Below, piece after piece: positions 4,421-50,095 of a stretch of DNA of 64,000 bases. A program made the translations under genes and the position numbers. Source of the stretch: the human T2T-CHM13v2.0 reference genome, Homo sapiens; assembly GCF_009914755.1 (NCBI RefSeq), contig NC_060946.1; one strand, given 5' to 3'. Under the pieces are notes generated by a model. It made no database searches. It was not told the DNA's origin and saw only the letters and a list, made by a program, of their open reading frames with translations. The stretch's first letter is position 1, and the number at the start of each line of letters is the position of its first letter.

Positions 4421-7310
4421 GGAGAATTCCAGCATGCACCAGGTTCACGGGACAGTGCGCGGTCACTGAAAGAAGAGGGGGGCGGGGAGGGTGGTGTGCG
4501 GCTGTGAGCACCTCTTGTGCTTGCTGGGAGATGTAGTCTTATAAAGACTCCCAGCCCTTTGGTCACAGGGCTGCAGCACCCCAATTCCAGCATACACCGG
4601 AATCAGAGACAGTGCGCGCTGGCAGAGGAAGAGGTAGAGCTGTGCGTGACTCGCTGGGCTTGATGGAAAATGTAATCTCATGAACACTCCTTAATGAACA
4701 GTGCGCCTCACTGGAGGAAAAGGCGGGGCTGTGCAGGCCTTGCTTTGCTTGCTGAGAGATGCTGTCTCATAAACACTCCCAGCCCTTTGGTCACAGGGCT
4801 GCAGGACTACATTCCCATCATGCACCGGGATCAGGGATAGTGCATGTGCCTGGGTGAAGAGACACAGTTTTGCGAGCCTCCTTTGGCTTCCTGGGAGATG
4901 TAGTTTCATAAAGACACCCAGACTTTTCATTACAGGGCAGCCGGACTACAATCCCAGTATGCACCAAGATCAAGGATAGTGCGCGTAACTGCAGAATGAG
5001 GCGGCATTGTGCACGCCTCGCTGGACTTGGTGGGATATGTATTCTCATAAACATACCCAACCCTTTGGTCATAGGGCGGGAAGACTACAATCCCAGCATG
5101 CACCTGGCTAAGAGACAGTGCCTGTCACTGGAGGAAGAGGCGGAAGACTACAATCCCAGCCAGCACCGGGCTCAGGGAAATTGTGCGTCAGTGGAGGAAG
5201 AGGCGGGGTTGTGTGCTACTCGCCAGGCTTGCTGGGAGTTGTATTCTCATAAAACCTCCCAGCCCTTTCATCACAGGGCTGAAGGACTACACTTCCAGCC
5301 CCAGCATGCACTGGGCTCAGGGACAGCGCGCGTCACTGGAGGAAGAGGGAGGGCTTTGCGCTTCTAGCTGTGATTTTTTGGGAGATGTAGTCTCATTAAC
5401 GCTCCCAGCCCTTTGGTCACAGAGATCCAGGACTGCAATCCCAACATGCACCCAGCTCAGGGATAGTGCGCTAATCACTGCAGGAAGAGGCAGGGCTGTG
5501 TGCACCTCCTGGGCGTACTGGGAGATGTATTCTCATAAACACTCCCATCCCTTTGGTCATAAGGCTGCAGGACTACAATCCTAGCATGCACCCAGCTCAG
5601 TGACAGTGCGCTAGTCTAAGGAGAAAGAGGCAGGGCAGTGTGCGCCTTGCTGGGCTTCCTGGGAGATGTAGTCCCATGGCGTCTCCCTGCCCTATGGTCA
5701 CAGTGCTATAAGACTACAATCCCAGCATGCACGGGGCTCAGGGAGAGTCCACATCACTGCAGAAAGAGGGGCAGGTTGTGCGCACCTCGCTGCGTTTGCT
5801 GGGAGATGTTGTTTCATAAAGACTCTCAGACCTTTTGTCACAGGGCTACAGGACTACAATCCCAGGATGCATCGGGATCAAAGCAGTATGCGACACGGGG
5901 AAAAGATGCGGAGCTGTGTGCGTCTCCCTAGGTCTTCTGGGAGATGTGGTCTCTTGGCCCTTTGGTCACAGGGCTGCAGGACTACAATGCCAGCATGCAG
6001 CGGGTTCATGGACAGTGTGTATCACTGGAGGAAGACGTGGAGCTGTGCGTGCCTCGCTGGGCTTGCAGGGAGATGCAGTCTCATAACTACCCCAGTCGTT
6101 TGGTCGCAGGGCTGCAGCAGTACAATTTCAGCATATCTTTGGCTCAGGGAGAGTGCACTAGTCACTGAAGGAAGAGGTAGGTCTGTGCGCACCTCTCTGG
6201 GCTTGCTGGGAGAGGTAGTCTCATAAACACTACCAGCCCTTTCATCACATCGCTGTAGGACTACAATTCCAGCATGCACGGGGCGCCGGGGCAGTCCGCC
6301 TCACTAGAGGAAGAGAAAGGCGTGTGAGCGCCTTGCTGGGCTTTCTGGGAGATGTTGTCTCTTTATTTCTCCCAGCCCTTTGGTCACAGGGCTTCAAGAC
6401 TACAATCCCAGCATGCATCCTGCTCAGGGACAACGCGCGTCACTGTAGGAAGAGGTGGACCTGTGCTGTTCTCGCTATGCTTTTTGGGATACGTATTCTC
6501 GTAAACACTCCCAGCCCTTTGGTCACTGGGCTGCATCACTACAATCCCAGCATACATCGGGATCAGGGAGAGTGCGCTAATCAGTGGAGAAAGGGGCGAG
6601 GCTCTGCACACCTCGCTGGTCTTGCTGGGAGATGCAGTCTCATAAACACTCCCAGCCCTTTGGTCACTGGGCTGCAGCGCTACAATCCTAGCATGGACCG
6701 GGCGCAGGGAATGTGCGCGTCACTGGAGGAAGAGGCAGGGTTGTGCAAGCCTCTCTGGGCTTGGTGGGAGTTGCAGTCTCATAAACACTCCCAGACCTCT
6801 CATCACCGGGCTGCAGGACTACAATCCCAGCATGCACCCGGCTCAGGGAGAGTGCGCATTACTGGAGGAAAAGTCTAGGCTGTGGATGCCTCCTTCTGCT
6901 TGCTGGGAGATGTAGTTTCATAAAGACTCCCAGAACTTGTGTCACAGGGCTGCAGGACTACCATCCCATTATGCACTGGGGTCAGGGACACGGCCCGTCA
7001 GTGGAGAAAGAGGCGGGGCTGTGTGCGTCTCCTTCGGCTTGCTGGGAGATGTATTCTTATAAACACTCCCAGCCCTTTGGTCAAAGGGCTACAGGACTAC
7101 AATCCCAGCATGTGCCAGTCTCGGGGGCGAGGTACAGGCCTGGAAGAAGGGGCAGAGTGGTACACGCCCCACCTAATATGCTGGGAGCTGTAGTCTGTTA
7201 ACTGCTCTCAGCCTGTTTGTCGGTGGGCTTCAGAACTATAATCACAGCATGTACCGGGACCCGGGGTGCATAGCCCTGGAGGGAGGGGCAGAGCGGTGTG
7301 GACTTCCCGG
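4421..7310 (+). repeat. 139-bp GC-rich tandem satellite, ~20-21 units (ACRO138-like)
   Basis: GACTACAATCCCAGCATGCAC recurs at ~139-bp spacing (e.g. ~4805, 4944, 5083 ... 6816, 6955, 7094). By-eye consensus: ggactacaatcccagcatgcaccgggctcagggacagtgcgcgtcactggaggaagaggcggggctgtgcgcgcctcgctgggcttgctgggagatgtagtctcataaacactcccagccctttggtcacagggctgca. Confidence 0.93.
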
Positions 7311-8099
7311 TGTCCAAAGCACTGCTGAGTTCTTATGCTATGCCGACTCTTTGCCAAGGAGAATGAGTACATAGGTGGACCTAGAGGACAGGTCTGCGCT
7401 GAGCATTGAGGAGGGTATTACCCTACATAGGCACCTTACCTTTGCCCAAATCGGGCGGGTTGTCCTCAACTGATTGGCCCTATCCTTCTCAAGTTCCTCT
7501 TTCAGCTGCACCCAGGGTTCTTTCCAGAGCATTGCGCCTTCTGCAGCCCAGGGCGCTGCCTTCTTTCCTAAACTGCTGTGGAAACTGTCCTGATGTCTGA
7601 GACACTGTCCATTGTGCCGCAGCCCTCTTTTTTCTCTAGCCAAGCCTCATGCTCAACAGCTTTTGAGAGAAATCTTCCACGTGGCCTGCTTATGAACAGC
7701 TTCAGAATTCTGTAGGGGGTGACAAGGTCTGTGGCTTCCTGGAAATGTCACTCTCAATGGCGCCTTTTTCACGAATGTGAAAGTTGAGGCATCAGGAAGG
7801 TTAATTATTGGGTTGCACAAAATCTGCTAAGAGCAAAGGAGAAAACCTCATTTCCGAGGCATGAGTCTTGTGAGCCATTTTCATCAACCCATTTAAGTGG
7901 ACAAGCTCCAAAATGAAACCTGAAGCTGCTGACTATTTAGGCATTTTACACTTGAAATCATCGGTCTCATCTCAAGTCACTCCTGACTTGCCAGTGTCTC
8001 AGAAACACAAATGGGACCGGATCCCTCAGGAGCAGATAGTGTTCCAGCTTTGTTGGAGCGACATTTAAGATGTGGAGCACTTGGGGTCGTTTGAAACCC

Positions 8100-11000
8100 G
8101 CTATCTTCAGTAGGGACTTTTACTTCTAGAGAACATGTGCATTTTGATTTTATCTGTCCTCAAACTGAACTTTTGCTCATTTTAATAGTAAAAACACATT
8201 CCTAGGTGGAGACTTAAGATGCTAATGAGACATGCAATGTATGCACAAATATGTACAGTTAGTGCACATGTGCACCCAGAAGACCACTCAAAACATGCTT
8301 ACACTAACACTTCTTTCCACCTTCTTATGAATAATCGTGCAAAACCCCCAGAAGGAGGGTTTCTCCAGTAACAATTAATGGTGTCTCACTCTTATGAGCA
8401 GCCTGCCCTGGAATCTCTTTCTCAGAATGTACCGTCTATTCTGCACTTAATTTTCAAAGTAGTCTTTTCTTTTTTTGTGTGCAATAAATTACTCTATGCT
8501 GTACTTCTTTTGCTGTGTGTTTCTTGTTTAAATTCTTTTAAACTAAGAAAATAAGAATCAAGGTATTACATCAGCCATCAACATTTCTTTTGCCATGGCC
8601 TGGAGAGAGGTCTGTCCGCTTCACTGATTTCACTTTCCCTTTACTTGCCGTGAATACTGTGGCACTTCCAGACTACCTGGTTAACTATCGCTGGTTCTTC
8701 CAGCACTGTTTCACTAAAGTTCTGGGGAAACCCTGTCCCTTTAGGCTTTATGCATTTCCCAGCTCCTTGAAATTGTTCTTCAACAGGCTTTCTTTGCTGA
8801 ACAAAAGATGCACAGTCATGGATATGCCCAGTCATAGGGATTGAATCTGAGCATTGCAGGTGTTATAATTGGGCATCATAAATGGCAAACCACTGAATTA
8901 GGGAAAGGCTTGTCAGCCAGACATCTGCTCCCCAGCGAGCAGTGGGGGTCATCTCGGCAGGGCTGGAGATGTCCAGCGCTGGTGAGAGCTAGGACGGTGC
9001 ATGGCAAATGCCTATGACCTCCTAGAGCTTCAGTTAATGGGGTTTCAAGGGGATGAGTTGGACAACTTGGTGGTTCCACTTGGCTCATGGGGCTGCCCAC
9101 AGCCTCCTGGACTTTAGTACATGTTCTGTCGTTTGCAGGATTCTCTTGGCACCATGGGAATCACTTCCTCTACTGTCACTGAAACACACCTGGGATGTAT
9201 ATTTAAAAATTGAAACAGCTTTTGGCTAAATGAAGCAAAAAAACAATTATCTTCTTTTGTAAAACTATTTAGCCTGCATACAGATTAGCTGACAAAACAT
9301 GGCTGGAGAATGAGACTGTGAAATTTAACACCATCATACAGCTAGATCTTTTCTGTAGTAATCAGGGAAAATGGTCTGAAGTATCCTATGTGCAAGACTT
9401 TCTGGCCCGACAACAAAACCCAGCTCTATGCAGCACCTGTGGGCTAAAGCCTAGTAAGCCACAAAGCCCCTCAGAACCATTAGAAGATCATTTGTTTTAT
9501 GGGCAAGGGACTCCAGACCCCACAGCCTAATACCAGCTCCAGATAGGGGCCCTCAGAGGCCTACACCTGCTTTAGAATCCCCAGCGTCCCCACACTATCA
9601 GAGTCTTCTGTAGAATCTAAGCTTGTTTAACCTCCTCCTTATGCTCCTCTATCAGCCTTGCCAGTTACAATAGAGACCAGTCCAGCTGCAGTTACTCACA
9701 GTGGAGCTTCACACCATGCAGGGCCAGAGAATTTGATCCGCTTACAGAAAGTCTCAAATGGAGAGAGGACCATCAGAGTGCTTCTTCTCTTCCCAGTAAA
9801 TGATCTAATCCAATGTAAGCAACAGCTCTGATGGCTCTCAGACAACTTCAGCGCGTTTACTGAAGCCTTCCAGTCTCTAACTTTGACCACCATTCAACTT
9901 TACCATCCATAAACGGACCCAATGACTGCTGCCAACTCAGCTGCACAAAACTTTTTCTTATTTGCGAAAAATAGAAAAGACTTAAAACTTTTGCTGCTTT
10001 CACCATTTTAAAGCAGAATACTTTTGCAGCACAAATGTCACCATAAGGTGGATCCTTGGGAATCCAGTATAAACTATCTCAGAAAATCTCAGTGTGTCCC
10101 CAACAGGCAGCAGAGGGCCTCAATAGACTTCAACAACATCTGGACTCCATGGCCACTGCATTCCAACAAAATCAAAGAGCCTGGGATCTTCTCCCAGCCA
10201 AGCAAAGAGGAACATGTTTATATCTAAAAGAAGAATGCTGTTTTTTGAGATCAATCATTCTGGTTTATTCCAAGAAAATATTAATAATATCATCACCCAG
10301 GCAGACAAAATTGAATCTCTAGGAACTTCCATGGGAACATGAAAGCGATGTCCATTGCCTGCCTTGCTCTCTTTAATAGTACCCGTCATTATTATATTTT
10401 CAACTTCTACTTTTGTTCCAATTTTGTTTAAAATGTTAACTGATTTCCTGCTATGTTGCTTGTGGCAGCTCCATGTTTGCATGATGGTTTGCAAGGCTTT
10501 CAATCTTTGGCTGCCAACATCTTCCCACTGGTTCCACGAACGACATGGTTTACACCCTGTTAGATCACACAGGAAGAAACTTTAAGGCCCAGGCTAGGCA
10601 GAAGTAACACCCACTCAGCAGGAAACAGCTCCAGAAAAAGTGGTCTAACCCCTCAACCTCCAATATGGTTATTGCCCTAAAATCTCTTAGGGGGAAATTG
10701 AGGCAGAATAGATAGTACAGAAAATGACCATGATCTCAGGATACAGAAACCATGGTGACTGTACAGCCAAAACAATAAGCCTTAGCATTCGCATTGTAAT
10801 TGGGCTTATTCGAGCAAAGCTATCCTCATTAAGGACTTTCTGTTCTAGAGAGCATGTGTATTTTGATTTTACCTGCCCTCAAACTTAAATTTTGCTTATT
10901 TTAATAGCAAACAATGCACCCCCTAGCCAGGCACGGTGGCTTATACCTCTACTCTCAGCACTTTGGGAGGCTGAGGAAGATGGATCACTTCAAACTAGAA

Positions 11001-11601
11001 GCTCGAGACTAAACTGGCCAACATAGAGAAACCCCGTCTAAATTAAAAATACAAAAATTAGCAGGGTATGATGGTGCATGCCTGTAATCCCAGATACTCA
11101 GGAGGCAGAGGCACGAGCATGGCTTGAACTCAGGAGGCAGAGGTTGCAGTGAGCAGAGATCACACCACTGCACCCCAGCTTGGGCAACACGGCGAGACTC
11201 TGTCTCAAACAAACAAACAAACACACAGAAATACACTCCTGGGTGGAAATATAAGATGCTAAGGAGACATGCAACATATGAACAAGCATGTACAGCTACT
11301 GCGCATATGCACCCAGAATACCACAGAGAACATGTTTACTAGCAACTCCTCTTCCCTCCTCCTTATTAATAATAATGTAAAACTGCCATAAAGGGGTTTC
11401 TCCAGCGACAGTCCACGCTGTCTCACTCTTATGAGCAGTCCGCCCTGGAGTATCTCTCTCAGGGTGTACTGTATTCTGCACTTAACTTTCAAATATTTTC
11501 TTTTCCAATAAATTATGCTGTACTTTTTTTCTTTGTGTCTCTTGTTTAAATTCTTAAAATCTAGGAAGACAAGAACAGAGGTATCACATCAGTTGTCAAC
11601 A
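8100..11601 (+). mobile_element. Defective ERV1 provirus: 5'-truncated LTR (8100-8583), gag remnant, pol deleted, env TM remnant, 3' LTR (10699-11601)
   Basis: Two homologous LTRs end in ccatcaaca/gttgtcaaca. Gag MA motif FNTIIQLDLFCSNQGKWSEVSYVQ (9318-9530). Env ISD and CX6CC motif QQNQRAWDLLPAKQRGTCLYLKEECCF (10056-10322). PPT ttagggggaaat precedes tgaggcag. Confidence 0.88.
10925..11230 (+). mobile_element. Alu inserted in the 3' LTR
   Basis: Dimeric Alu with A-rich linker and (AAAC)n tail; absent from the 5' LTR. Confidence 0.95.
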
Positions 11602-14600
11602 CAGCAATAAGTCAGCCTCCTTCTTGTAAGCATAGCCCATGCAGAAAAGGAGAGTCGCATCACCTCGGTGCTGGATCCAGAGGTATGTCACAATTTATCC
11701 CATGCACAAAGTTAAGGTCATTGAGGAGAGTCATATTAAATAATTTCTGGGCCCAGGGATTTGTCACAACAGCTCCTGTGAGAAGAGATCAGGCAGCATA
11801 ATCACATAACCGGTGTGCTGGACACAGCGATAAGCCACCTTTCATCTGTGGGCATGACCCAGGCAAGAAAGAAGAGTCACGGCATTTAGGTGCTTGCTGC
11901 AGAGGTACGTAACAATCTCTCTTATGGGCAAAGCTCAGGTAAGAGAGAAGAGTCAAATCTCCAAGGTGATTCATGTAGAAATTTGTCACAAGAGACTTTT
12001 TAGGCAGGGCCCATGTTGGATCTTCTTATCTTCCAGAAGTTAGGTACAGGGATATGTCAGAATACCCAAAATACACAGGGCTCAGTCAATAAAGAAGAGC
12101 CACATCACCCAGGTGCTGGGTCTAGACATATGTCACATCTCTTTTATGGGGAAAGCTCAGGTAAAAAAGGAAGGTCATATCAAATAGTTGATAGACCCAG
12201 AGATATGTCACATTGCCTCCTGCTTGAAGTGTCTAGGCCAAAGACTCACATCACATTGGTGCTAGGCCTGTGTTCATATATAAACATTCAACCAGAGTTG
12301 AAATGGTGGCTCGTTTCTAAACCCAGCTTATAGGCAAGGGATGAGTCTCCTATCCTGACATAGTTAATTGTAATGATGTTGACTCTCATCCCTGGGCTTA
12401 ATGTTACAAGTATGATCATGGGTCCCTACCATTAGGAAGGTCTCAAAGTTGATTACGACTCTCATTCATACAGTATAGGGCCATTGGGTAGTACACAGAG
12501 CGTGCTAACTGGGCCGAGCACACAGGTGAGATTGTGACACTCATATGCATACCCAGGCAACAGTAACTATTGTCATCCTCTCACGGGAACACAAGTCAGT
12601 CTGCAGAGGAATTGAGGCTCTCATGCGCAAATCCAGTCTGGTGTTGAGATGGTTATTCGTGGGCTTAGACCCAACATACAGGAGGTGTTGAATGTCATGC
12701 CTACCACTGAGACAGCTGTGTGATTGTTAATCTAATTCCTGGACCATTCTGCAGCTTCCATTGTCAAATTTCCCAGTGCCTAGCACCTAAGTGACTTGAC
12801 GGGCTCGCATGGACCCAGCCCACAGATGGGATATTAACATATTGCTGGATCCAGCACATTGAGGATGTAACTCTATTCTCCTTCGTTGGCACTGCCCACA
12901 GTGAGCAGTTTGACATATCGCTAGACCTTACACCCAGGTGATGTGAGTCTCCTCTTCTGCCTTGGCGCTGCCCTCAGGAAGCGTTGTTATATATAGCTTG
13001 GCCTCGCATCCAGGTTATGTGACTCTCCGGCTTGTGCACTGCCCATATGGGACACTGTGTTAATATTGCTGGGTCCACTACTCAGGTGATGTAACCCAAC
13101 TGCCTGGGCCCTGCCTTACAGGGGCATTGTGACATATCTCTGTGCTCATCAGCCAGGTGATGTGATTCTCTTCTCCTGCCTGGTCCCTTTACACAGAAGG
13201 GATTGTGACACGTTGCTGGGCTTAGCACCAAGTTGATGTTGATGTGAATCTTCTGCCTGGATCGAGTTCACAGAAGGCATCGTGACATACCTCTGGGTAC
13301 ATCACCTATTTGATGAGACTCTCCTCTCTTACCTGAGCATTGCCCATAAGAGAGATTGTGACATATCCCTGGGTCTAGCACTGGGATGATGTGAATTCTC
13401 TCTGCCTGGGTCATGCCCACAGAAGGAAGTGTGACTTATAACTGGGAACAGCACAGGGGTGATGTGATTCTTCTGCCTGGTCCCTACGTACAGGAGTCAT
13501 TGTCAAATGCCTCTGGGCCCATCATCTAGACTATGTGACTCTCTACTTCTTCCTAGGGCCTGCTCACATAAGGATTGTGACATATTACATGCCCTACATC
13601 ATGTGACTTTTCTCTCATGTCTGGGCTCCGTCTTGGAGATGAATGTGACACATACCTAGGCCTGTTCCCTAGGTTCTGTAACTTCTCGTTTTTCAAAATC
13701 CTACCCACCAGGGGCATTGAAACATCTCTGTGGGCACTTCACTTAGGTAATGTTACCCTGTTGCCTGGAGCCTCCCCTCTGGGGGGTATGGTGACATATT
13801 GCTGGACACAGTACCTATGTGATATTCTCTCCTTTCTTGCCTGGGCCTTGTATACATTATGTATTCTAATATACGGCTGGGTTTAATGACTAGGTGATGC
13901 AACTCTTATGCATAGACCCTACCCGCAGGGACATTATGACATTTCTTTAGCTCTGACTCTCCTCTTTTTCCTTAGCCCTGCCAAAAAGGGAGGTGGTGAC
14001 ATATAACTGGACCTAGAAACCAGCTAATATGAGTCTCCTCTTTTGCCTGCACCCAGCATATTTTAGGTGTTGTATCATATCCTTTGTCTCAACACCTGCA
14101 GGATGAAAGGCTCCTGCCTGAGCCCAGCCATCTGTCAAAATTGTTTCTCCCACACGAACATGGACCATAATTGAGGTTCTGAAACTCACACCCAGAGGCA
14201 GTCAAAAGTTGGAAAATTGGCTCTTAAAAGTGGATATTGTCTGCCAGTGGGTTTGTGACTCCCTGACCAAGATCCAAAACACTTGTGAGGCTGTGAGTCC
14301 ACTAAGATAACTCCGTTTTCAAAAGGGATTAAGGCTCTCATGGAAAAAACCCATTCCTCCATTGAGATTGTGACTTATGCACATAGATACAACGTACAGG
14401 AGGCGTTCACTCTCATACCCAGAACCGGAACTTATGTGGGATTGTTAATCTCATCCATGGACCTTCCTGCAGGTGTGATTCTGACATACACCTCTAGCCA
14501 GCACCTGAGTGATTTGACATTTTTGCCTGGGTGTAGCCCACAGATGAGATTGTGATATATCTCTGAATCCAGCATCTAATTAATATGCTTCTATTCTCCT

Positions 14601-16352
14601 GTCTTGGCACTGCCCATAATGGGTATCCTGACCTAACACTGGTCCTGGCACTTTGTTATGTGACTCTGTCCTGTGCTTTGCCCACACGAGCCATTGTGAC
14701 ATATTGCTGGGTCCAACACCCAGGTGATGTAACTCTTGTCTAGACTTTGCCTACAGGGGGCATAGTGACATATCTCTACACTGACCACCCAGGTGATGGG
14801 ACTCACTTCTCCTGACTGCTACCTGTTTATAGCAGGGATTGTTACAAATCGTTGCGGGCAGACTCTAGGTAATGTGACTGTCTTTTTACAGAGCGCTACC
14901 CACAGGAGCCATTGCAAAATATCTGTGGGCCTCTCACTCTTTGCCTGGGCTCATTTCTCAGGGGTATTGTGACATATGGCTGACCTCAGCACCGAGGTGA
15001 ACTGAGTTTCTTCTACTGTAGGGCTCTGACCAAAGAGAGATTACAATGTATCACCGGGCCCAGCACCTGAGCTATTTGACTCTCCGCTCTTGGCTGCACC
15101 CTACATTTATTGTGTATTGTGATATATCACTGGGTCCAACACGTAGGTAATGTGACTCACCTGCATGGGCCATTTCCCCATGGGTACTATGAAGTATCTT
15201 TTTGTTCATCACTTAGGTGATGCAACTCTCCTCTTTGCCTTGGGCCCCACATAATTTAGCTATTGTGATATATCACTGGGCCAATCACCTAGTCAATAGG
15301 AAGCTTCTGCCAAGACCCTGACTACTGAGGGCCTTGTGACATAGCTCTGCATTTATCACCTAGAAAATATGATCCCCCCCCATTTCTGCCTGAACCCTGC
15401 TCACAAGAAAAATTGTAGCATACTTCTGGGCCCAGCAAACAGGTGATGTGTTTCACCTGCCTGTGCTTAGTTCACAGGGAAAATTGTGACATATCACTGG
15501 GCCCAGAACCCAGGTGAGGTGACTCTGCTGCATGTGTCGTGCTTTCAGGAGAGAACAAGAACATATCCCTGGCAGAACTCTTAGGGATGTGACTCTCTTG
15601 CCTTGTCCCTGTCCTCAGGGAAGACTGCAACATGTCCCTGACACAGACCCAGGTGATGAGACTCTCCTGCTTCTGACTACCCAAATGTGAGATTGTCACA
15701 TATATTTTGGCCTAGCATGTAGGTGTGATGATGACATTCATACCTTAAACCAACCAATAGCAGAGATTCTTTCTCTCACAGCCAGGCTTAACAAAACTTG
15801 CAAAATTATGGGTCTTCTCTTACTATGAAGGTCAGAGAAAGTAAGCACTCTTGCATATCCTATAAAGCACTCAGATGGTACAGTGTCATCACAGGGCCCA
15901 GAACACAGGTGAGATTGTGTTCTCTGTGTGCACACCCACCAATCATCAGAATTGTCATTCCTACACAGGAACAGAGGTGATTAGGGAGGTCTAAACCTCA
16001 TACCTGAATGCCGTCCACAGCTGGAATTGTAACTATCACATGTGAACATCCAGTCACAGTTGGGATAGTGACTTATTTCTGAACCCAGTTTACAGCCAAG
16101 TAAAGATCCTCTTATCTGGATCCAGCCAGCTGGAGAGATGTTGACTCTCATACCTGGACTTATGGCCACAGGTATGATCATAGGTTCATATCAGCATGAA
16201 GACCTCAGAGTGGATTATGTTTAATGCATACTCTACAAGTTCCACAGGAGGTACATAGTGTCCTAACAGGGCCCAGCAAACAGGTGAGATTCTAACACTC
16301 ATGCACACTCTGGTGACAATAAAAGTTACCATCCTCAAAAATGGGCACAACC

Positions 16353-16980
16353 GGCATGGCTCAGTGGCTCACGCCTGTAATCGCAGCACTTTGGGAAGCC
16401 GAGGCGGACAGATCATGAGATCAGGAGATCAAGACCATCCTGACCAACATGGTGAAACCACGTCTCTCTACTATTTATGATTATGATTATGATTATGATT
16501 ATGATTATGATTATTATTTTGAGACAGAATCTTGCTCTGTCACCCAGACTGGAGTGCAGTGGCACCATCTAGGCTTACTGCAACATCCGCCTCCCTGGTT
16601 CAAACAATTCTCTTGTTTCAGCTTCCCGAGTAGCAGGGACTACAGGCTCATGCCACCATTCCCAGCTAATTTTTGTATTTTTAGTGGAGACGGGGTTTCA
16701 CCATATTAATTAGGCTGGTCTCAAACTCCTGACCTCAGGTGATCCACCCACCTCGACCTCCCAAAGTGCTGGGATTACAGGCATGGGACACTGTGCCTGG
16801 CCACCCCATCTCTACTAAAAATACAAAAATTAGCTGAGCGTCGTGGCACGTACCTGGAATCCCAGCTACTCGGGAAGCTGAGGCAAGAGAGTTGCTTGAA
16901 CCCAGGAGGCAGAGGTTGCAGAGAGCCGAGATCGCCCCACTGCACTCCAGCCTGGCGATAGAGTGAGACTCCGTCTCAAG
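16353..16980 (+). mobile_element. AluS split by a nested antisense Alu (16474-16802)
   Basis: Left arm 16353-16473, antisense Alu with (TTATGA)n tail, then right arm 16803-16980. Duplicated target accacgtctctctacta/accccatctctacta. Confidence 0.93.
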
Positions 16981-16985
16981 GGACC

Positions 16986-16989
16986 AAAA

Positions 16990-17050
<61 letters not shown>

Positions 17051-17052
17051 AG

Positions 17053-17084
<32 letters not shown>

Positions 17085-17284
17085 AAGAAAGAAAGGAAGG
17101 AAGGAAGGAAGGAAGGAAGGAAGGAAAAGAAAGAAAGAGAAAGAAAGAAAGGAAAAGAAAGAATTAAAGAAGAAAGAAAGAGAAAGAAAGAAGAAAGAAA
17201 GAAGAAAGAAGGAAGGAAGAAAGAAAGAAAGAAAAAGAAAGAAAGAAAAAAGAAAGAAAGAAGAAAGAAGAAAGAAAGAAAGAA

Positions 17285-17336
<52 letters not shown>

Positions 17337-17340
17337 GAAA
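16986..17340 (+). repeat. (GAAA)n/(GGAA)n polypurine tract, ~350 bp, expanded from the Alu tail
   Basis: Almost purely A/G on the + strand. Confidence 0.97.
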
Positions 17341-28014: not shown

Positions 28015-28150
28015 CAATTTATTTATTTATTTATTTATTTATTTTAGAGACATGGTATTGCTTTGTTTCCCAGGCTGGTCTCAAACTTCTGGGCTCAAGT
28101 TAACCTCCCACCTCAATCTCCTAAAATGCTCGGATGACAGATATGAGCCA
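28015..28150 (-). mobile_element. Alu monomer (FLAM/AluJ left arm)
   Basis: (TTTA)n followed by gagacatgg...caggctggtctcaaacttctgggctcaag...atgagcca. Confidence 0.8.
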
Positions 28151-32999: not shown

Positions 33000-33507
33000 T
33001 TAACTTCAAATCACAGAAGTGTTTCCTTCAACACAAAAGTAATATAGATTCATTAATATATAGAAGTGGAAATTAAGACAATTTCCACAACTACTCACCC
33101 AGAGAGGATTAAAAAAATAATTGACCACCAACTAATAAAACAAATACACAAGTCATAAATAAAGTATGAGTAATGTTTATACAGGCAAATGAACAGAGAA
33201 TTATGTTGGCAATAGACGTGTGGTTGATTCATATTTGACTGATTCATATTCAACTGTACACAGTTGAATATAGTCATACAAAATTATAATATATAGGCAG
33301 AATCTAAAAACACAATTAAATAATGTAAGGCAGCCTATCCTAACAAGGAAATACAAGAATATATAATATTAGAAAATAAAATTAAATAAACATTAGCCTG
33401 TGAAATACCGAATAAACAAAGCATGCAACGGAAGAAGACTCTTTCTAGATAACTAGCATGTTCAACCATAACTGGGCTCCCATAAAGAGCAGATTTTGAA
33501 TTCTTAG

Positions 33508-34112
<605 letters not shown>

Positions 34113-36259: not shown

Positions 36260-39182
<2,923 letters not shown>

Positions 39183-40442
39183 AAAACTGCTTAATGAACA
39201 AAAACAGAACATAGACAACAAAAGAATATTAGAAGAAGTGATACATAAAGAAAATGAGATATCAATAAAAAGATTTTTAAAAACCAACAATTGTGAATCT
39301 GAAGAACATAATAGCTATATTAAAAATTTAATCAACAGTCACAAAAGCAGACTAATAAAGGAGAAAAAATTACACAATTGATGACATTGTAGTTATAAAT
39401 ATTGAGTGATGAAAACAAATTTTTTAAGCAGAATGGAGGAAAAAGTATGGGACGCACTGCACATCGTCAAGTGGACCATTATATTTATGAAAGGAGTCTT
39501 ACAAAAACAATATAGGAGAAAAGTAATAAAGAGGTTATTTTTAAAAAGTAGCTGAGAAATCCCCACATGACAAGATAATTAAACAAGAAGAAATACTTCC
39601 AAACAAAAACCTTCAACTGGAGTAATATCACTTCAGAAATAAAAAAACTAAACCTTTCCAAAATAAATAAAAGTTGATTGTGTTACTAACCACTAGAAGA
39701 GTCCTAAAGGAAGTGTAAAAGAGTCTATCACGTCCAAAAATGAAATGATGCTGCAGAGCATCATAACAGCACATGAAAATAGAAAGCTCTCTATTAAAGG
39801 TAAATATATAAACAGGTAAAGAAATCTCTACTGTCATAATCATGGTGCACAAAACTTTCAAAATATTGCCATGGAGTTTAAAACATGAAGCAAAAATCTT
39901 CATAAATTTGTGATCATAGACCATAAGGAAAGATAATATGCGATATTAATAAAACAGTGGGGGTGTGAAGAGGTACAACTTTGCATTCAGTTGAAATATT
40001 GTTGTTATATATTGTCATAACTTTAAGATGATTTATGAAGTCTTTATTTCTCAGGATGATTACCAAAAAAACCTGTAGAATGTATGCAAAGGCAAATGAG
40101 AAAGAAATTCAATCACGTCACTACAAAATCAACAAACAGAAATAAAGCAGTAAGAGAAAAAATGATAAATAACACATCTACAAGAAACACAGAAGACAAT
40201 TACAAATAATAAAGTAACTTCATTAAATGCAGTAATTACTTCAAATATAAAAAGTTAAATACCTTAAAGAAAATTAATAAATAATTTAATGGATTAAGAA
40301 CAAAGAAGATCCAGCAATTTGCTCTCTACAAGAGTCACTTCAGCTCTAAGGACTCAAATAAGTTGAAAGTAACAGTATAAAGAAAATATATTTTATGCAA
40401 AGAGTAGCTAAAATTGGAGGACCATGGTCATAATTATACTAA

Positions 40443-40795
<353 letters not shown>

Positions 40796-40962
40796 GAGAG
40801 AGATTGGTATTATGTAATGGTGAGATGGATTAACTTTCCAGGAATCTATAACAATAATTTAGAAATCATATATACAACTTGAAAAATCTGCAAAAATATA
40901 CCATTGAGATTTTGACAACAATTACATTAAATTTTTGTATTACTATAAATAGCACTGACATC

Positions 40963-41085
40963 TTTCTTTCTTTTTTTTTTTTTAGAGACAGAGTTTCTTT
41001 CTCTCAGGCTGGAGGGCAGTGGCATGATCTCTCGATAGGCTCACTTCAACCTCCTCCTCCCAGGTTCAACTGATTCTCGTCTTTC
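40963..41085 (-). mobile_element. Truncated Alu right arm
   Basis: polyT followed by agagacagagtttc..caggctggagggcagtggcatgatctc. Confidence 0.8.
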
Positions 41086-41477
41086 AAATATGTAAAACAA
41101 ATATTGACAGAAGTCAAGCAAGAAATACATAGCAACACAACAATGGTGGACTTCAAGACTCCACTTTCAGTAATGACTAGAATAGTCAGAAGTAATATCA
41201 GTAAGAAAGCCAAACCTGAACATTATAGACCCAACCAGCATTTACAGAACTCTCCAATTTAAAGGAGCAAAATCTACAATATTCTAAATCACACATGGTA
41301 CGTTCTGTTAGGGTACATGTCTTATTAAATTTAAGAAAACTGAAGCCATACAATGTAAATGAAACTAGAATTCAAAATCAAGAAAATGTGGCCAATATGT
41401 AAATAAGAGGAAATTAAGCAAAATCTTTCATACTGTCTTGCTCAAGGGTCAGGTGATTTAATATTGTTAAGATGTCA

Positions 41478-41776
41478 GGGCCGGCATGAGGCTCATGCCT
41501 GTAATCCTAGGACTTTGGGAGGCCAAAGTGGGTGGATCACTTGAGATCAGAAGTTTGAGACTAGCCTAGTGAATATGGCAAAACCCTATCTCTACTAAAA
41601 ATACAAAAGTTAGCTAGACGTGATGGTGCACGACTGCAATCCCAGCTACTCTGGTGGCTGAGACTGGAGAATTGCTTGAACCTGGGAAGTGGAGCCTGCA
41701 GTGAGCACATCTCGCACCCCTGCCCTTCAGCCTGAGTGACTCACTAAAACTCCATCTCCAAAAAAAAAAAAAAAAA
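41478..41776 (+). mobile_element. Alu (S/J)
   Basis: Full dimer with polyA tail. Confidence 0.93.
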
Positions 41777-42436
41777 TGTTGTCAGTACTACTCATGATGA
41801 TATAAAAATGTAAGGTAATTTTTGTCAAAATCCCAATGGTATTTTTTTTGCAGAATTTTTGTGTATAATTCTAAACGTTGCTTAGAAAAGGTGACTAGCC
41901 AAACACCCTTTAAAAAGAACAAAGAGGTATTACATTTTCTGATTCAAAATCATGATACAAAGCTACAAAAATAAAAACAATGTGGTATTGCCACAAAAAC
42001 AGATACATAGATGACGAAACAGAATAGAGATCCCAGAAATAAACCCTTGCATATGTGATAAAATAATCTTCCATAAGCTTTCCATGACCACACAATAGAA
42101 AAATAAGAATCCATTTAACAAAGAATTTTCCAAATTGAATATTTACAGAGAAAAAAATAAAGTTGGATGCTTCCTTTGTATCATATATAAAAAGAAAAGT
42201 TTTTAAAATGAATTCAATACTTAAACATAAAACCTAATAAAATTCTTAGAAGTAAACATAAGGGAAAAGTTTATGACATAAGTCTTAAAACTCTTTCCTT
42301 AAGTTTGACATCAAATTCATAAGCAACAAGGAAAAGAACAACGACCAAAAAAAAGGACTACATTAAGCTTCAACTATTCTACACATCAAATAAAACATTT
42401 AGTGCCATACAAACGTCACCTAATAAGTGGGTGAAA

Positions 42437-42552
42437 GCTAGGCATGGTGTCTCATGCCTTTAATTCTACAACTTTAGGAGGCCAAGGCAGAACAATCACT
42501 TGAGGCCAAAAGTTTGAGACTAACCATGAAAACACAGCAAGACCCTGTCTTG
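42437..42552 (+). mobile_element. Alu monomer (FLAM-like)
   Basis: gctaggcatggtgtctcatgcc...gcaagaccctgtct. Confidence 0.75.
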
Positions 42553-43735
42553 TATAGGGTTATATATATGCATACATACATACATATAACAAAAAAGAGT
42601 AAAAATATTTTCTAATCACATATTTGGTAGGTGTTAATTTTCAAAATATATAAATTCCTAAAACTCAACAACAAAAAAAGTTAATAACTTGATTTAGAAT
42701 GGCACATGTTTGAAATGACTTTCTCCAAAGAAGACATAGAAATGACTAGGCATTTAAAAGGATACTCGAGAACTCTCTTCTAGAAAAATACAAAGAAAAG
42801 TCACAATAATCTATCACATCAAACTTATTTTTAAAATAGTATGAAAGCTCTTCAAAAAATTTAAAATGAGATTATTATACAATCCAGCAAACCCCATTCT
42901 GGCTATGTATTTAAAATATACAACACATGATCCGGAAGAGATATTTGCACACCCAAATTTATTGCAGCATTACTAACACAAGCCAAAAGACAGAAACAAC
43001 CCAGCTGTCCCTTGACCAATGAAGAGATTAATAACAAGTGGCACATACACAAAGTCGAATATTATTCAGTCTTTAAAAAGTCACATTATATGATTATTCT
43101 TGAGAATATCACGTTAACTGAAATAAGCCAGGAACAAAGTGACAGTCTATGATTCCATTCATAATCAGGTATCTTAAGTAGACAAACTCATAGGAAAAAA
43201 AAAGTTAGAATGGTGTTAGTCAAGGACTGAAGAGATGGTAAAATGGGAAATTGTCTTAAAAGACATTTAATGTTAGTTTTGCAAGACATAGAAGTTCTAC
43301 AGATCTTTTGCATAACTATGTGAATGTACTTAACGCTAATGAAATATACACTTAAAAAGAATTAAAATGGTAAATTTTACATTATGTGTTTTTACCACAA
43401 TCGCAATTTTTAAAAGGAAAAATATGGACTTATAAAGCTTTCCAAAAATTAAATTTTGTTCACAAAAGATTTTCTCTCACACAAAGGAAGTATAGATTTA
43501 TAATTAAACTCATTGTGAAATTAAGATTATTTCAATGACTATTCATCCACACAAGATAAGACAACCACTGAAAATCAGCCAAAAAATATGGAAGATAAGC
43601 CAGGAGCAAAGTTGGGGACATATTTATAGAGACAAACACATATATAATTTAATTTTGAAAACGTATGACCGATTTATATTTTAATTAAACCCAACATTAG
43701 TTTCCTGAGTGAAATTTGGTTTTTAGTTTGGGCAA

Positions 43736-44297
43736 ATGAAGACCTTTCTGTGGTTAAAAGGATTCTTTCTTCTCCGTTTCTTCATATGGACCTGTGCTGG
43801 GGATTGGTCAGCTGTTCAAGTGCAATGCACTCAGTTTTGGTTCTGTGCCAGGATTAAACCTACGATATTTCACATTTCATATATAAACCCCGATGAAGTG
43901 TTTCTAGGAGATGGCTGCCTCATAACCTATATTTTGCCAAATGTTTACTATGAATTTCACCACCATCCTCTTGAAGGTGGTATTGTAACTAAAACTCTTC
44001 AGGACATTCTACTTAAAACTAAAATCACGTATATCTCAAGACACTCCTTTCTGATTTGAAATGCCTCTGTCATGTATTGTTTGCAATCAGCATCCTCTTT
44101 CAAAGAAAGTGGAAAGGACAGATGAGGAAACTGATAGTGTTACTGCATGGGAGACAGAGGTGAGGATACACATGGCGGATGAAAACATGGAAGTTATTTC
44201 TACAGCACGATCTTGTAAGTGTCTGACTGCTATGCTCCCTTGTATATCAAATGATGTACCTTTATTGCAAGAGAAGATAGTGCGCTGTTTACCTTGA
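43736..44297 (+). pseudogene. OOSP1P: OOSP1 (oocyte-secreted protein 1, PLAC1/ZP-N family) processed pseudogene
   Basis: MKTFLWLKGFFLLRFFIWTCAGDWSAVQVQCTQFWFCARIKPTIFH..NPDEVFLGDGC..LPNVYYEF matches OOSP1 as recalled. Intronless, frameshifted near 44050 before MPLSC, and the third ZP-N Cys is lost (LEGG in place of HDCG). Confidence 0.9.
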
Positions 44298-44737
44298 CAT
44301 TGAGAGGCAATTTTGAATCTCTGTCGTGATTGCTTAGGACTGAGGATTTAATGTGCTATTTTGTGGAAATCTTAGAAGCAGTAATGGGATTTAATGATCT
44401 TAACTATCATCCATCTGAAAAATCTAACGCGATTTTAAATAAAATGGCCGGCTGCTTCCACCGTTCCCTTTTTAAACCAGGAGCTGCCGTTGCTTTTAAC
44501 ATTATGAAGTTGAATCTATGAATAGTTTGTACTATTAACATTTTTTTAAAAATCCACATTGACTTGAAGTGTACAGGCAGAGGTGGAAATTATAACATCC
44601 AAAGTTATAATACATAAGTAAAACCCAAAATAAAATCAACTGCTGCCCTGGAACCTATTCTAAATAATCGAGACAGTAATATGGAATTGTAAAGAAAAAT
44701 AAGAAACATATTTACTCATAAAATCTTGCAAGCAAAG

Positions 44738-46750
<2,013 letters not shown>

Positions 46751-49319
46751 AGACCAGCCAAGACTTTTACTTTATAAAGATATTTATGATGTTTTCTTTT
46801 CTTTTTACAGTATGTATTGCATTTATAATTGGAGATACAAAAAAAGGTGACTGTTACTGTTTGACAGCAAGGCAGTAGTATTATCTTCATCAATATTTGC
46901 AACTTCATTCACAGGAACCTGTAAGAGAAAGCCCAGACAAAACTTTAAGGCAAAGAAGTTACACTTGTAAAAAATGAGAGGACTATTTTTTTATAATAAC
47001 AAATATTCCAGGTGAGGACTGGTCAGGATCTACCACTGCTCCATCTCACTTGATAAGTCTCATGCCTGCCAGGGTAAGAAGGAGCAGAGAGAAGGACAAA
47101 TGCCAGTGAGTTTCCTCTCCCACTAAGGATCTGTTTGTCAAGTTTCCTACCATCAAGTGGAAGATGTACTAAAAATAAAATGTACCCTTGCAGATGCTAA
47201 CAGAGAGGCACAAAATAGAAAAGGAGGTAAGCCCACACATTGTGGAGAAAGAGATCCAACTTAAGATTCAAAATGCACCAGAAAGCTGTGTAAAGTTAAT
47301 AAAATTACTCAAAATCTTGGAACATTTGTTTCCTCACCTGTAAAATGGGGATCATGTGCCTACTTCATAAGTTGTTTTGACAGTTAAATTCACAGAGATA
47401 TTTAATAGAGCCTGCTATGGCAAGTGTTCACATTAACAAAGTAGTATCAAACTTCAAAATATGGGAAAGGTATTTTGAATAATGTCTATGAGGCCAAGGA
47501 CAACATGCCCAGCTTCATAATCAATCCCAGCCACATTACACTGAGGAGATCTACAGGGCAACTATATTTCTTCAACAAATTCCATTAGAGAGGAAGAGTG
47601 TGTAGTCTGAAAACATGACACAAATGTGACCAGTGTACAGTGACTTAGGTAGTCGGGGGTGGAGTCCCTACATATTCTCTGAATTGCAGTTACACAGTGA
47701 GTTCCCAGGAAACAAATGGAATAGAAAAGGTGACACAAAATATACTACCATAAATGGGGTGAGCATAGCAGGTTCACAACCACAAATGTAAGCAGGAGAC
47801 TCAAATCACAAGGAGCACCTAGATCTGTGAACAGCAGCTTGTGGTGGCATCAGGTTCAACTTTCTGAGACCACCGGTGTGGGCAGTGTCTTTGCAGGCAC
47901 ATACTCGGCAGCAGTGTATCTGAAGACAGATCTCAAGGCTCTTCTCTTCATTAATTATTAAGATGATAGATGATGGATACCCTCACGTTACAACATCCCC
48001 ACTAACGCTGTGGACAAGTGAATTCAGAAACCCCCACCTAAATACACAGTGAAGAGTAGGATGAGAATACTGCAGGATAGGTTAGGAATGCAGGCATTCG
48101 ACCCCATAGAGTCTATTTAAAATAAGAGAAGGGCCCTAGTATTGTGCTGTGGTCCTCCTATATATAGTTCTTTATTTTTCCAATTTCATAAAGGCCATAC
48201 AGTTTTTCTTCCTTTCTTCACAAATGTGCTGATGAACCCATGAGTAATTCATCCTGAAGGGGTTAATTCCTCATAAAGTACAGTAACGTGATTCAATTGC
48301 TATGATGAGGTTTTTCAGGATTTTTTTATAGTGTCCCATACTCACCGATCACAAGTGAAAATTATAAGAACATGTAATTTGAACAAAGTATTCTTTTCAC
48401 ATAGAGAAATACACAGGTTTGTACAGATTAGATGCATCATCAAAGTTGGTAACATCTGGGAACAAAAGGAACTATCCTGAGGACATAAGGAACTTAGGAA
48501 CGTCGATTATTAAGAGGCTACCTGCAAGTGGAACTTCTGGGTTTTCATTGTCTAGACAGAAAAATTTAACTGATAAGCCCCAGTATATTAAGGTACATCC
48601 CCAACGGCTGTGGGGGATCAACTTTCCATCCAAAGCAGAGATGTAAAACATGAATGACTTCAAATGCGGCTCAAGTGCTCTGCACCTTGAAAGTCATCCC
48701 CACAAAGCTGGAGCACCACCTGTTCCTGAGGGATGAGGTCACCAACTGCTTTTTTGAGACACTCGTCAGTCAGGACTCAGTTGAGATGAGGCTGGTGATT
48801 TCAACTGTAAAATATCTAAACCATCATCTTTAGGTAGATTCTTATGCCTGGGAATTGTGGTTTTCTCCTCTGCTGTTAGCAGATCCTGAGTAACCCAAGA
48901 AATACCCGCTCTCACCCGTCAAGTTCTATATCACAAGAAAGGCGCTGCAGACGGTGACATTTTCACGAAGGAGCCACAGCCCGCATCACCCCCTGAAAGC
49001 TCTGAAGTTGCGCACGGGTGGGTCACGCAGCAGGTGGATGTCTCAGTTCCCATAGAGTTTAGCAGAGCAGGCGGCTCCCTGGGCTGGAAGAGGTGCGATG
49101 CTCTGGAAACCCCCCACTGGTGTGTATGTGAGAGGACACCGAGATGTGCAGTGGGCTGTGCAGTGAGGACCAGACACCTCCGATTTGAGCAAGGGAGGTG
49201 CACTTCGCAGGGTCACACCGTCCTCATCGCCCAGCCTAGACCTGCCCCTCAAGTCCTTCTGCGGACTCCCTTGGCGAGGGGGTGGCACAGAATCAGCATG
49301 TGGCATCGCTTAGGAAAGG

Positions 49320-50095
49320 ACGAGTCCACACCGCCCTGTCCCTCCCTCCAGGGCTGCGCACCACGGGGGAGGACAGACAGCGCATGCTGGTTTTGTAGTT
49401 AGCAGGTCGGCGACCAATGGGCTGGAAACCGTTAAGACACCATAACTCCCAGCACTCCTAGCTAGGGACGCGCCTCCCTATCCTTCGCTTCCATACTGCA
49501 CACCGCCCCCAAACCCAGCGCATGCTGAGATTGTAGTCCGTTAGCCTCGCGACCAATGGGCTGGAAATACTGAAAGGACTATGACTCCCAGCATGCCTTG
49601 CGAGGTACCCGCCGTCCCGATCCTTCCTCTAGGGCTGCGCACCGCCCCCAAGCCCAACGCATGCTGGGATTGTAGTCAGGTAGTCCTGGGACCAACTGAC
49701 TGGAAACTGTTAAGAGACCATAACTCCCAGCACGCCTGGCTAAGGACGCACCTCCCTATCCTTCCCTTCAGTGCTACACACCGCCTCGAAGCCCGGTGGC
49801 TGCTGGGATTGTAGTCTGCAGGCCGGGGGCCATCGCTGGAAACCGTTAAGAGACCATAACTCCCAGCATCCCTGGCCAGGGACGCGCCTCTCTATCCTTC
49901 CCTCCAGCGTTACACACCGCCCCAATCCCGGTGCATGCTGGCATTGTAGTTCGGTAGCCTTGCGATCAACGTGCTGGAAACCGTTTAAGGACTATGACTC
50001 CCAGGACGCCTTGCGAGGGACCCACCCTGTTGACCCTTCCTCCAGGGCTGGGAACCTCCCCTAAGCCCAGCGCATGCTGGGATCATAGTCCGACT
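49320..50095 (-). repeat. Inverted, diverged ~6-unit copy of the 139-bp satellite
   Basis: gcatgctg(g/a)...tgtagt at 49382, 49520, 49659, 49798, 49933 and 50072 (spacing 138, 139, 139, 135, 139). The reverse complement aligns to the 4421-7310 unit. Confidence 0.92.

What the first reader, a model, noticed from the sequence alone, without database searches (positions are those of the whole stretch)
4421..50095. Two convergent, diverged paralogues of one 'satellite + flank' promoter-like module bracket a ~42-kb domain
Seen in the sequence: the apparently unique DNA after the left array (~7260-8097) aligns colinearly to the reverse complement of ~48657-49380. Examples: gtgcatagccctggagggaggggcagagcggtgtggact vs gtgcgcagccctggagggagggacagggcggtgtggact; tttccagagcattgcgccttctgcagcccagggcgctgcc vs tttccagagcatcgcacctcttccagcccagggagccgcc; atctgctaagagcaaaggagaaaacc vs atctgctaacagcagaggagaaaacc; atccctcaggagcagatagtgttccagctttg vs atccctcaggaacaggtggtgctccagctttg. 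Both flanks abut a 139-bp array. Left-copy homology stops at the truncated ERV LTR (8100). Inference: the CpG island at 49-50 kb and the satellite at 4.4-7.3 kb descend from one duplicated, inverted module. If this is the rDNA distal junction, it would give a common origin for the roughly 45-kb-spaced open-chromatin peaks reported there (Floutsakou et al. 2013, recalled). I do not recall this paralogy being spelled out.
Basis: partly seen in the sequence, partly recalled or inferred. Interest (0 to 1): 0.8.

Follow-up and report, generated by a model that had tools for sequence, protein, structure and literature searches.

The report
Third ACRO138-like promoter array near rDNA
The two look-alike "satellite plus flank" modules are real, but they are two old members of a low-copy duplicated-segment family scattered over many human chromosomes, not the two halves of one local inverted duplication.

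Summary
139-bp arrays lie at 4425-7297 and 49381-50092, and their flanks align colinearly in inverted orientation (69% over 710 columns; BLAST E down to 4e-42). A second, outer flank also matches (2029-2896 vs 52265-51073).

The window is the rDNA distal junction (DJ). The left array is the published ACRO138 block at DJ ~138 kb, inside the proximal arm of the large DJ inverted repeat. The right array (5 units, a CpG island, DJ ~94 kb) is not named in any text I could read. It lies about 3.5 kb outside that repeat, which ends near window 43,259.

Both modules belong to a family with at least 35 further loci (chr7, 16, 19, X, 9, 3, 4, 10, 20 and other acrocentric sites), each with the 139-bp unit beside the same flank.
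- In trees, LEFT groups with its distal-arm copy, 4q35-type copies, chr19 and chr9q; RIGHT groups with chr7, chr16 and chrX copies.
- Holding RIGHT with the DJ-type copies is rejected (AU p = 7e-58). RIGHT as sister to all of LEFT's clade is not rejected (p = 0.19).
- RIGHT is an 8.1-kb block colinear with chr7:64.27 Mb.

No family copy was found at the 187- and 238-kb DJ promoters. Both arrays carry M4/SBS-type motifs, which suggests THAP11/ZNF143-type promoter elements.

The parts
2029..2896 (+). LEFT outer flank, homologous to RIGHT 52265-51073
   Evidence: 73% and 67% minus-strand matches. It is 94% identical to the distal-arm copy.
4425..7297 (+). LEFT 139-bp array of about 20 units. By position this is the published ACRO138 block at DJ ~138 kb.
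   Evidence: Position computed from the hub's rRNA coordinate and the junction ~4 kb upstream of the transcription start (PMC6942050 passage). GC 0.55, CpG observed/expected 0.41. 10 of the 12 ACTACA..CCCAGC hits and 6 of the 9 M4 hits lie here.
7298..8099 (+). LEFT inner flank
   Evidence: It is 91% identical to an inverted copy at chr22:4495152-4495985, the other arm of the DJ inverted repeat.
8100..8583 (+). Dispersed LTR-like repeat where left-right homology ends
   Evidence: 377 first-look candidates. A second copy lies at 11229-11601, 77% identical.
43200..43320 (.). rDNA-side end of the proximal arm of the large DJ inverted repeat (about 43,259)
   Evidence: the last inverted match to the distal arm covers query 956-1459 of 41800-44700, matching chr22:4460071-4460572 at 91%. 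Nothing matches beyond it.
46761..54837 (-). RIGHT copy of the duplicated-segment family, an 8.1-kb block colinear with chr7:64.27 Mb
   Evidence: Present once on each of the five acrocentric chromosomes at 99-100% identity.
48672..49380 (-). RIGHT inner flank
49381..50092 (-). RIGHT 139-bp array of 5 units, inside a CpG island at 49251-50150
   Evidence: (GC 0.59, CpG observed/expected 0.66). 2 of the 12 ACTACA..CCCAGC hits and 2 of the 9 M4 hits lie here.
51073..52265 (-). RIGHT outer flank. The predicted start of lncRNA LOC124905548 (52307, minus strand; hub annotation) lies 42 bp beyond it.
   Evidence: hub gene table.

Best explanation
LEFT (about 2029-8099) is the known ACRO138 block at DJ ~138 kb with its flanks. 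It sits inside the proximal arm of the large DJ inverted repeat.

RIGHT (46761-54837) is a separate, older-looking copy of the same low-copy duplicated-segment family. It carries a 5-unit ACRO138-like CpG-island array at DJ ~94 kb, about 3.5 kb outside that inverted repeat.

The family's ancestral unit already held 1-3 copies of a 139-bp element with M4/SBS-type motifs next to the same flank. The element was amplified to about 20 units in the LEFT lineage and to 5 in RIGHT.

Inferred: the two DJ copies arrived as parts of different duplicated segments during the patchwork assembly of the DJ, not by one local inverted duplication.

Inferred, not shown: the arrays act as multi-site platforms for the THAP11/ZNF143/HCFC1 class of CpG-island promoter factors. 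This would give the open, H3K4me3-marked, transcribed sites reported at ACRO138 blocks, and would probably drive the minus-strand lncRNA across RIGHT.
For: Position. The left flank has 5 identical acrocentric copies and 5 inverted copies at 91% about 162 kb distal. This matches the published blocks at 138 and 297 kb (PMC3847771 passages).

Family. 35 further loci were seen, and the 139-bp unit lies beside the flank at these loci.

Inner-flank tree (30 rows, 887 columns). One clade at 100/100 support holds LEFT, the distal arm, chr3/4/10/20/22 copies, chr19 at 19.9 and 20.2 Mb, and chr9q. RIGHT falls among chr7, chr16, chrX, chr9p and chr19q copies.

AU tests. LEFT + distal arm + RIGHT as one clade: p = 8.7e-5. 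The 8 DJ-type rows + RIGHT: p = 6.7e-58.

Outer-flank tree (12 rows). RIGHT groups with chr7 and chr16 copies at 86/90 support.

Structure.
- RIGHT is colinear with chr7:64.27 Mb over 46761-54837. It shares 48660-46761 with chr7, chrX, chr16 and chr9p copies that LEFT lacks.
- LEFT shares 325-2029 with chr7:56.77, chr19:30.32 and chr3/4/20, and 8100-8503 with chr9:132.5.

Motifs. The pattern ACTACAN{2,3}CCCAGC hits 12 times, all in the two arrays (expected 0.01). The M4 pattern hits 9 times, 8 of them in the arrays (expected 0.62), and also occurs in units of other family loci. M4 and SBS as THAP11/ZNF143 sites comes from the abstracts of PMC5006282 and PMC3627581 (listing).

Not a coding gene or autonomous transposon. 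None of 14 module ORFs and none of the 73 ORFs within family units has a Pfam domain. The only hit among 74 ORFs from family loci is an L1 reverse transcriptase outside the unit.
Against: - The AU test does not reject RIGHT as sister to the whole 11-row LEFT clade (p = 0.187), or, on the outer flank, to the 5 DJ-type rows (p = 0.107).
- The trees are unrooted, and RIGHT has a long branch (0.17).
- The inner-flank and outer-flank trees disagree on where the chr7:56.77 / chr19:30.32 pair sits.
- LEFT does not meet CpG-island criteria (observed/expected 0.41).
- The commoner motif variant in the arrays is one base shorter than strict M4.
- No binding, chromatin or transcription-start data could be examined here.
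- The family could not be named, and no Dfam/RepeatMasker check was possible.
Confidence: 0.62

Rival explanations
1. An ancient local inverted duplication. One family copy in the ancestral DJ was duplicated in inverted orientation about 42 kb away. The LEFT lineage later seeded the chr19, chr9q and 4q35-type copies and was copied into the second arm of the DJ inverted repeat.
For: RIGHT as sister to the whole LEFT clade is not rejected (AU p = 0.187; p = 0.107 on the outer flank). The two copies are close together, inverted, and share the same three-part order of outer flank, array and inner flank.
Against: RIGHT shares 1.9-2.3 kb of inward and about 2.6 kb of outward continuation with chr7, chr16 and chrX copies that LEFT lacks. 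LEFT's outward continuation is shared with chr7:56.77 and chr19:30.32, which are not in LEFT's clade. The free trees place RIGHT with chr7 and chr16 copies. 20 of 28 copies are closer to RIGHT than LEFT is.
Confidence: 0.2
2. The shared unit is an old, non-autonomous transposable or composite element, and the two DJ copies are independent insertions.
For: Copies are dispersed over at least 10 chromosomes at 65-82% identity. No Dfam or RepeatMasker check was possible.
Against: Only about 49 first-look candidates were found per query, clustered in duplication-rich pericentromeric and ZNF-cluster regions: 10 on chr7 and 8 on chr16. Shared blocks reach 8 kb, with different break points in different copies rather than fixed ends. 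There are no coding domains. By contrast, the true repeat at 8100 gave 377 candidates with fixed ends.
Confidence: 0.08
3. The modules are relics of degenerate rDNA units, which would explain the ~45-kb spacing.
For: The array-to-array spacing of about 43.9 kb is close to the rDNA unit length. The periodicity was noted in PMC3847771.
Against: Three genome-wide searches with module pieces listed no hit inside any rDNA array, although hundreds of rDNA copies are present. The 187- and 238-kb promoters have no family copy.
Confidence: 0.03

Closest known systems
ACRO138 repeat blocks of the human DJ (Floutsakou et al. 2013, PMC3847771; McStay 2016, PMC4973289)
   Same: LEFT is, by position, the 138-kb block, and its 91% inverted partner is the 297-kb block. 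[quoted passage not shown] These blocks are reported as open chromatin and transcribed (passages).
   Different: Both papers describe two blocks, inside the arms of the inverted repeat, as a novel acrocentric repeat. RIGHT is a third, 5-unit, 74%-diverged array outside the inverted repeat. The unit with its flank also occurs at 35 or more other loci, including chr7, 16, 19, X and 9.
Large DJ inverted repeat or palindrome (arms ~109 kb, PMC3847771)
   Same: The LEFT and distal-arm copies are a product of it (91-94% identity).
   Different: The LEFT/RIGHT pair is not part of it. RIGHT lies beyond the arm end (about 43,259), has no partner at the far end, and is only about 69% identical to LEFT.
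M4 / SBS core-promoter motif bound by THAP11, ZNF143 and HCFC1 (abstracts of PMC5006282 and PMC3627581; PMC3668359, listing only)
   Same: The motif pattern occurs 8 times in the two arrays against 0.62 expected in the whole window. RIGHT is a CpG island.
   Different: Here the motif is carried on a tandem 139-bp repeat, with two inverted motif-like sites per unit. Occupancy is untested.
4q35 / 10q26 / 3p12 / 20q11 segmental duplications shared with acrocentric short arms
   Same: LEFT with its flanks (about 1126-10000) is 84-91% identical to chr4:193.4, chr10:134.6, chr3:75.69 and chr20:31.07 Mb.
   Different: RIGHT has no such close copies. That these are the FRG2-region duplications is recalled, not tested.

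Membership tests
ACRO138 (DJ tandem repeat) | Tandem repeat with a period of about 138 bp | tested here: met
   Period 139 in both arrays. The two consensus units match at 103 of 139 positions.
ACRO138 (DJ tandem repeat) | Present in the DJ of all five acrocentric chromosomes | tested here: met
   5 of 5 acrocentrics at 99-100% identity for the LEFT flank, the RIGHT flank and the RIGHT array.
ACRO138 (DJ tandem repeat) | Lies at DJ ~138 or ~290-297 kb, within the arms of the inverted repeat | tested here: inconclusive
   LEFT meets this (computed 136-139 kb; partner at ~298 kb). RIGHT does not (about 94 kb, outside the arm). The coordinates rest on a recalled 28S offset plus the ~4-kb junction from PMC6942050.
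ACRO138 (DJ tandem repeat) | Open chromatin, transcribed | not testable with these tools
   Only literature passages are available. 'TF sites and expression' at 6-8 kb of GL000220 (PMC10097779) and 'H3K4me3 sites that flank the IRs' (PMC11795452) may be RIGHT, but this was not mapped.
CpG-island promoter of the M4/SBS (THAP11/ZNF143/HCFC1) class | M4 or SBS motif present | tested here: met
CpG-island promoter of the M4/SBS (THAP11/ZNF143/HCFC1) class | CpG island (GC at least 0.5, observed/expected at least 0.6) | tested here: inconclusive
   RIGHT meets it (0.59 and 0.66). The LEFT array does not (0.55 and 0.41).
CpG-island promoter of the M4/SBS (THAP11/ZNF143/HCFC1) class | Factor occupancy and a mapped transcription start | not testable with these tools
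   Only a predicted RefSeq lncRNA start at 52307 on the minus strand (hub table).
Local inverted duplication of one module | The two copies are each other's closest relatives | tested here: not met
Transposable element | High copy number, fixed ends, coding or known TE sequence | tested here: not met
   About 49 candidates, variable break points, no domains. A Dfam check was not possible.

The most novel reading that the evidence does not exclude
RIGHT is an unrecognised third ACRO138-type promoter of every human NOR, sitting at the rDNA-side edge of the DJ palindrome. The three M4-motif arrays per DJ (about 94, 138 and 297 kb) would be ZNF143/THAP11/HCFC1 landing platforms, co-opted from an old promoter-bearing duplicated segment. 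They would set the H3K4me3 and open-chromatin sites, and perhaps contacts, that organise the DJ at the nucleolar periphery.
Probability: 0.3. Interest if true: 0.55.

Novelty: new member of a known kind. Interest (0 to 1): 0.36.

Why it matters
The DJ is the only conserved non-rDNA part of human nucleolar organisers, and what creates its promoter-like sites is not known. This work gives three things.
- ACRO138 is an amplified piece of an older, genome-wide, M4-motif-bearing duplicated segment, not an acrocentric invention.
- A third copy marks the edge of the DJ palindrome.
- There is a concrete, testable set of factors: ZNF143, THAP11 and HCFC1.

It also removes an attractive but unsupported idea, namely that the ~45-kb periodicity of DJ promoter peaks comes from one duplicated module.

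Tried and rejected
- CTCF core motif scan: 2 weak hits in the window, none in the modules, no more than chance.
- Rfam over the whole window: only a Y_RNA-like hit at 214-314.
- Pfam on 14 module ORFs and 74 ORFs from 8 family loci: nothing except an L1 reverse transcriptase outside the unit. Neither a coding gene nor an autonomous element explains the family.
- Search for left-right homology resuming after the repeat at 8100, between 2897-4424 and 50093-51073, or beyond 2029/52265: none.
- CpG observed/expected of the inner flank across 30 copies does not set the DJ copies apart.
- The genome search with 30000-48000 was swamped by L1, and the one with 52300-56800 by an LTR.
- The family could not be given a published name. 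I considered FRG2-region and TP53TG3-region duplications from memory only, without testing.
- One preprint on acrocentric origins (10.64898/2025.12.22.696095, passages) and one on rDNA epigenetics (PMC11451732, passages) said nothing on these modules.
Full report
**Where this is.** The hub places the window at CHM13 chr22:4,650,001-4,714,000, and the genome search confirms it. The hub lists a 5,071-nt rRNA gene at window 155,561. I take it to be 28S, starting about 7.9 kb after the transcription start; that offset is recalled. The rDNA/DJ junction lies about 4 kb upstream of the start (PMC6942050 passage). The junction is therefore near window 143.6 kb. On that scale the left array lies at DJ 136-139 kb and the right array at about 93.5-94.2 kb.

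TRF finds period-139 arrays at 4708-7112 (two rows, 3.1 and 14.1 copies) and at 49410-50092 (4.9 copies). Self-BLAST extends the left array to 4425-7297.
- The flanks give three colinear inverted matches at 66-78% identity, with E from 4e-42 to 1e-16.
- The consensus units (15 left units, 5 right units) are both 139 bp and match gaplessly at 103 of 139 positions.
- The outer sides of the arrays also match: 2029-2896 against 52265-51073.
- No further left-right homology exists.
- Window 8100-8583 is a true dispersed repeat, with 377 first-look candidates. Of 40 scored rows, 20 are unrelated loci at 78-82% with the same ends.

**What LEFT is.** The left inner flank has 5 identical acrocentric copies and 5 inverted copies at 91% about 162 kb distal, for example chr22:4,495,152-4,495,985. 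That second site computes to DJ ~298 kb. Floutsakou et al. describe two ACRO138 blocks, at 138 kb and at 290-297 kb, inside the ~109-kb arms of the DJ inverted repeat. They report them in open chromatin, with the 138-kb block transcribed (PMC3847771 passages and section 9). LEFT is therefore the known 138-kb ACRO138 block.

**What RIGHT is.** The proximal arm of the inverted repeat runs through the window to about 43,259. The last inverted match is to chr22:4,460,071-4,460,572 at 91%. The stretch 36,436-40,400 still has its 86% inverted partner.
- RIGHT's family block (46,761-54,837) therefore starts about 3.5 kb outside the palindrome.
- It occurs once per acrocentric chromosome (5 copies at 99-100%) and has no partner beyond the distal arm.
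- Its array is a CpG island at 49,251-50,150, with GC 0.59 and observed/expected 0.66. The left array has observed/expected 0.41.
- The library holds 6 papers containing 'ACRO138', of which 5 were listed. I read passages in four of them: PMC3847771, PMC4973289, PMC10097779 and PMC8997349. The two that give a count (PMC3847771 and PMC4973289) speak of two blocks, and none of the four mentions a third block or relatives outside the acrocentrics.
- Two passages may refer to RIGHT, but I could not map them and their figures are in supplements I could not open. [quoted passage not shown]

**The family.** Genome-wide searches with the left flank, the right flank and the right array list 35 loci besides the three DJ positions:
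- 10 on chr7 (56.7-57.6 and 64.3-65.5 Mb);
- 8 on chr16 (32.6-34.4 and 38.6-39.0 Mb);
- 3 on chr19, 3 on chrX and 2 on chr9;
- one each on chr3, 4, 10 and 20;
- 5 other acrocentric short-arm sites.

Only the best 40 of 42-49 candidates are scored in each search, so these counts are lower bounds. At these loci the 139-bp unit (1-3 copies) lies next to the same flank. The 'satellite plus flank' layout is therefore ancestral to the family, and ACRO138 is an amplification of it.

**Are LEFT and RIGHT a private pair? No.**
- Identity: 20 of 28 other copies are closer to RIGHT than LEFT is, and 22 of 28 are closer to LEFT than RIGHT is. LEFT and RIGHT are 71% identical, RIGHT's best match is 77%, and LEFT matches chr19 and chr9q copies at 81-82%.
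One clade at 100/100 support holds LEFT, the distal arm, chr3/4/10/20/22, chr19 at 19.9 and 20.2 Mb, and chr9q. RIGHT sits on a long branch (0.17) among chr7, chr16, chrX, chr9p and chr19q copies.
- AU tests: LEFT + distal arm + RIGHT together, p = 8.7e-5. The 8 DJ-type rows + RIGHT, p = 6.7e-58. RIGHT as sister to the whole 11-row clade is not rejected, p = 0.187.
- Outer-flank tree (12 rows): RIGHT groups with chr7 and chr16 copies at 86/90 support. The AU test for RIGHT + 5 DJ-type rows gives p = 0.107, so it is not rejected.
- Structure adds independent weight. RIGHT is colinear with chr7:64.27 Mb from 46,761 to 54,837. It shares 48,660-46,761 with chr7, chrX, chr16 and chr9p copies, sequence that LEFT lacks. 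LEFT's outward continuation (325-2029) is shared with chr7:56.77, chr19:30.32 and chr3/4/20. Its inward continuation (8100-8503) is shared with chr9:132.5.

Other parts of the window also have 70-76% relatives on chr7 and chr19, so the DJ looks like a patchwork of old duplicated segments. I therefore favour independent arrival of two family members (0.62) over an ancient local inverted duplication (0.20).

**The 45-kb spacing.** The array centres are 43.9 kb apart. However, no family copy was listed at chr22 positions corresponding to the 187- and 238-kb disnor promoters, and none inside any rDNA array. The first-look filter may miss copies below about 65% identity. A shared origin can thus cover the ~94-, 138- and 297-kb sites only.

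**How it probably works (inferred).** The pattern ACTACAN{2,3}CCCAGC occurs 12 times in the window, all in the two arrays (expected 0.01). The M4 pattern ACTAYRNNNCCCR occurs 9 times: 6 in the left array, 2 in the right array and 1 at 3705 (expected 0.62). It is also kept in units of other family loci. M4 and SBS are described as THAP11/ZNF143 promoter sites in the abstracts of PMC5006282 and PMC3627581, seen in the listing. I did not read those papers. Each unit holds two such sites in opposite orientation. The arrays would therefore be multi-site promoter platforms. RefSeq predicts a minus-strand lncRNA starting at 52,307 and running across RIGHT (hub table). A search for ZNF143 together with DJ, acrocentric or NOR terms returned no listed paper holding ZNF143 (15 listed of 596). 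No CTCF motif lies in the modules.

**Verdict.** The proposed origin is largely replaced by membership of a dispersed duplicated-segment family. One member is the known ACRO138 block, and the other is a new, small member at the edge of the palindrome.

Noticed in passing
window 214-314 (+): Y_RNA match from Rfam at 42.2 bits (gathering score 38, E 3e-5). It is probably a Y RNA retropseudogene.
   Followed up: no
window 12,700-24,100: A nest of diverged direct and inverted internal repeats at 66-70% identity. Examples are 15056-16283 vs 18927-20149, 19836-20610 vs 22443-23215, 14123-14777 vs 20175-20837, and inverted 13126-13682 vs 21941-21389 and 17740-18348 vs 22303-21709. This suggests an old local multi-copy segment within the span of the CtBP2-like pseudogene model.
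   Followed up: no
window about 43,259: The rDNA-side end of the large DJ inverted repeat can be placed here. Its partner end is at chr22:4,460,071. The 3.5 kb between it and RIGHT is mostly Alu-like repeats.
   Followed up: partly
window 34,826-36,124 and 41,800-43,700: These stretches have 70-76% relatives at chr7:65.075, 56.92 and 66.54 Mb and chr19:21.4-22.8 Mb. They lie in the same chromosomal neighbourhoods as some family copies. This hints that several DJ pieces came from chr7 or chr19 pericentromeric and ZNF-cluster duplications.
   Followed up: no
window 24,053-24,391; 27,374-27,875; 54,878-55,290; 59,000-59,487: Four copies of one dispersed LTR-like repeat at 75-82% identity. The copy at 54,878 ends RIGHT's colinearity with chr7:64.27 Mb.
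   Followed up: partly
window 50,122-50,209: A 43-bp unit repeated twice at 95% identity, just outside the right array, containing an ACTACAGTTCC-type motif.
   Followed up: no
L025 / L019 (chrX:51.76 and 51.81 Mb): Two family copies that are identical over the aligned flank lie in inverted orientation about 50 kb apart on chrX. This would be a young palindrome carrying the same module.
   Followed up: no
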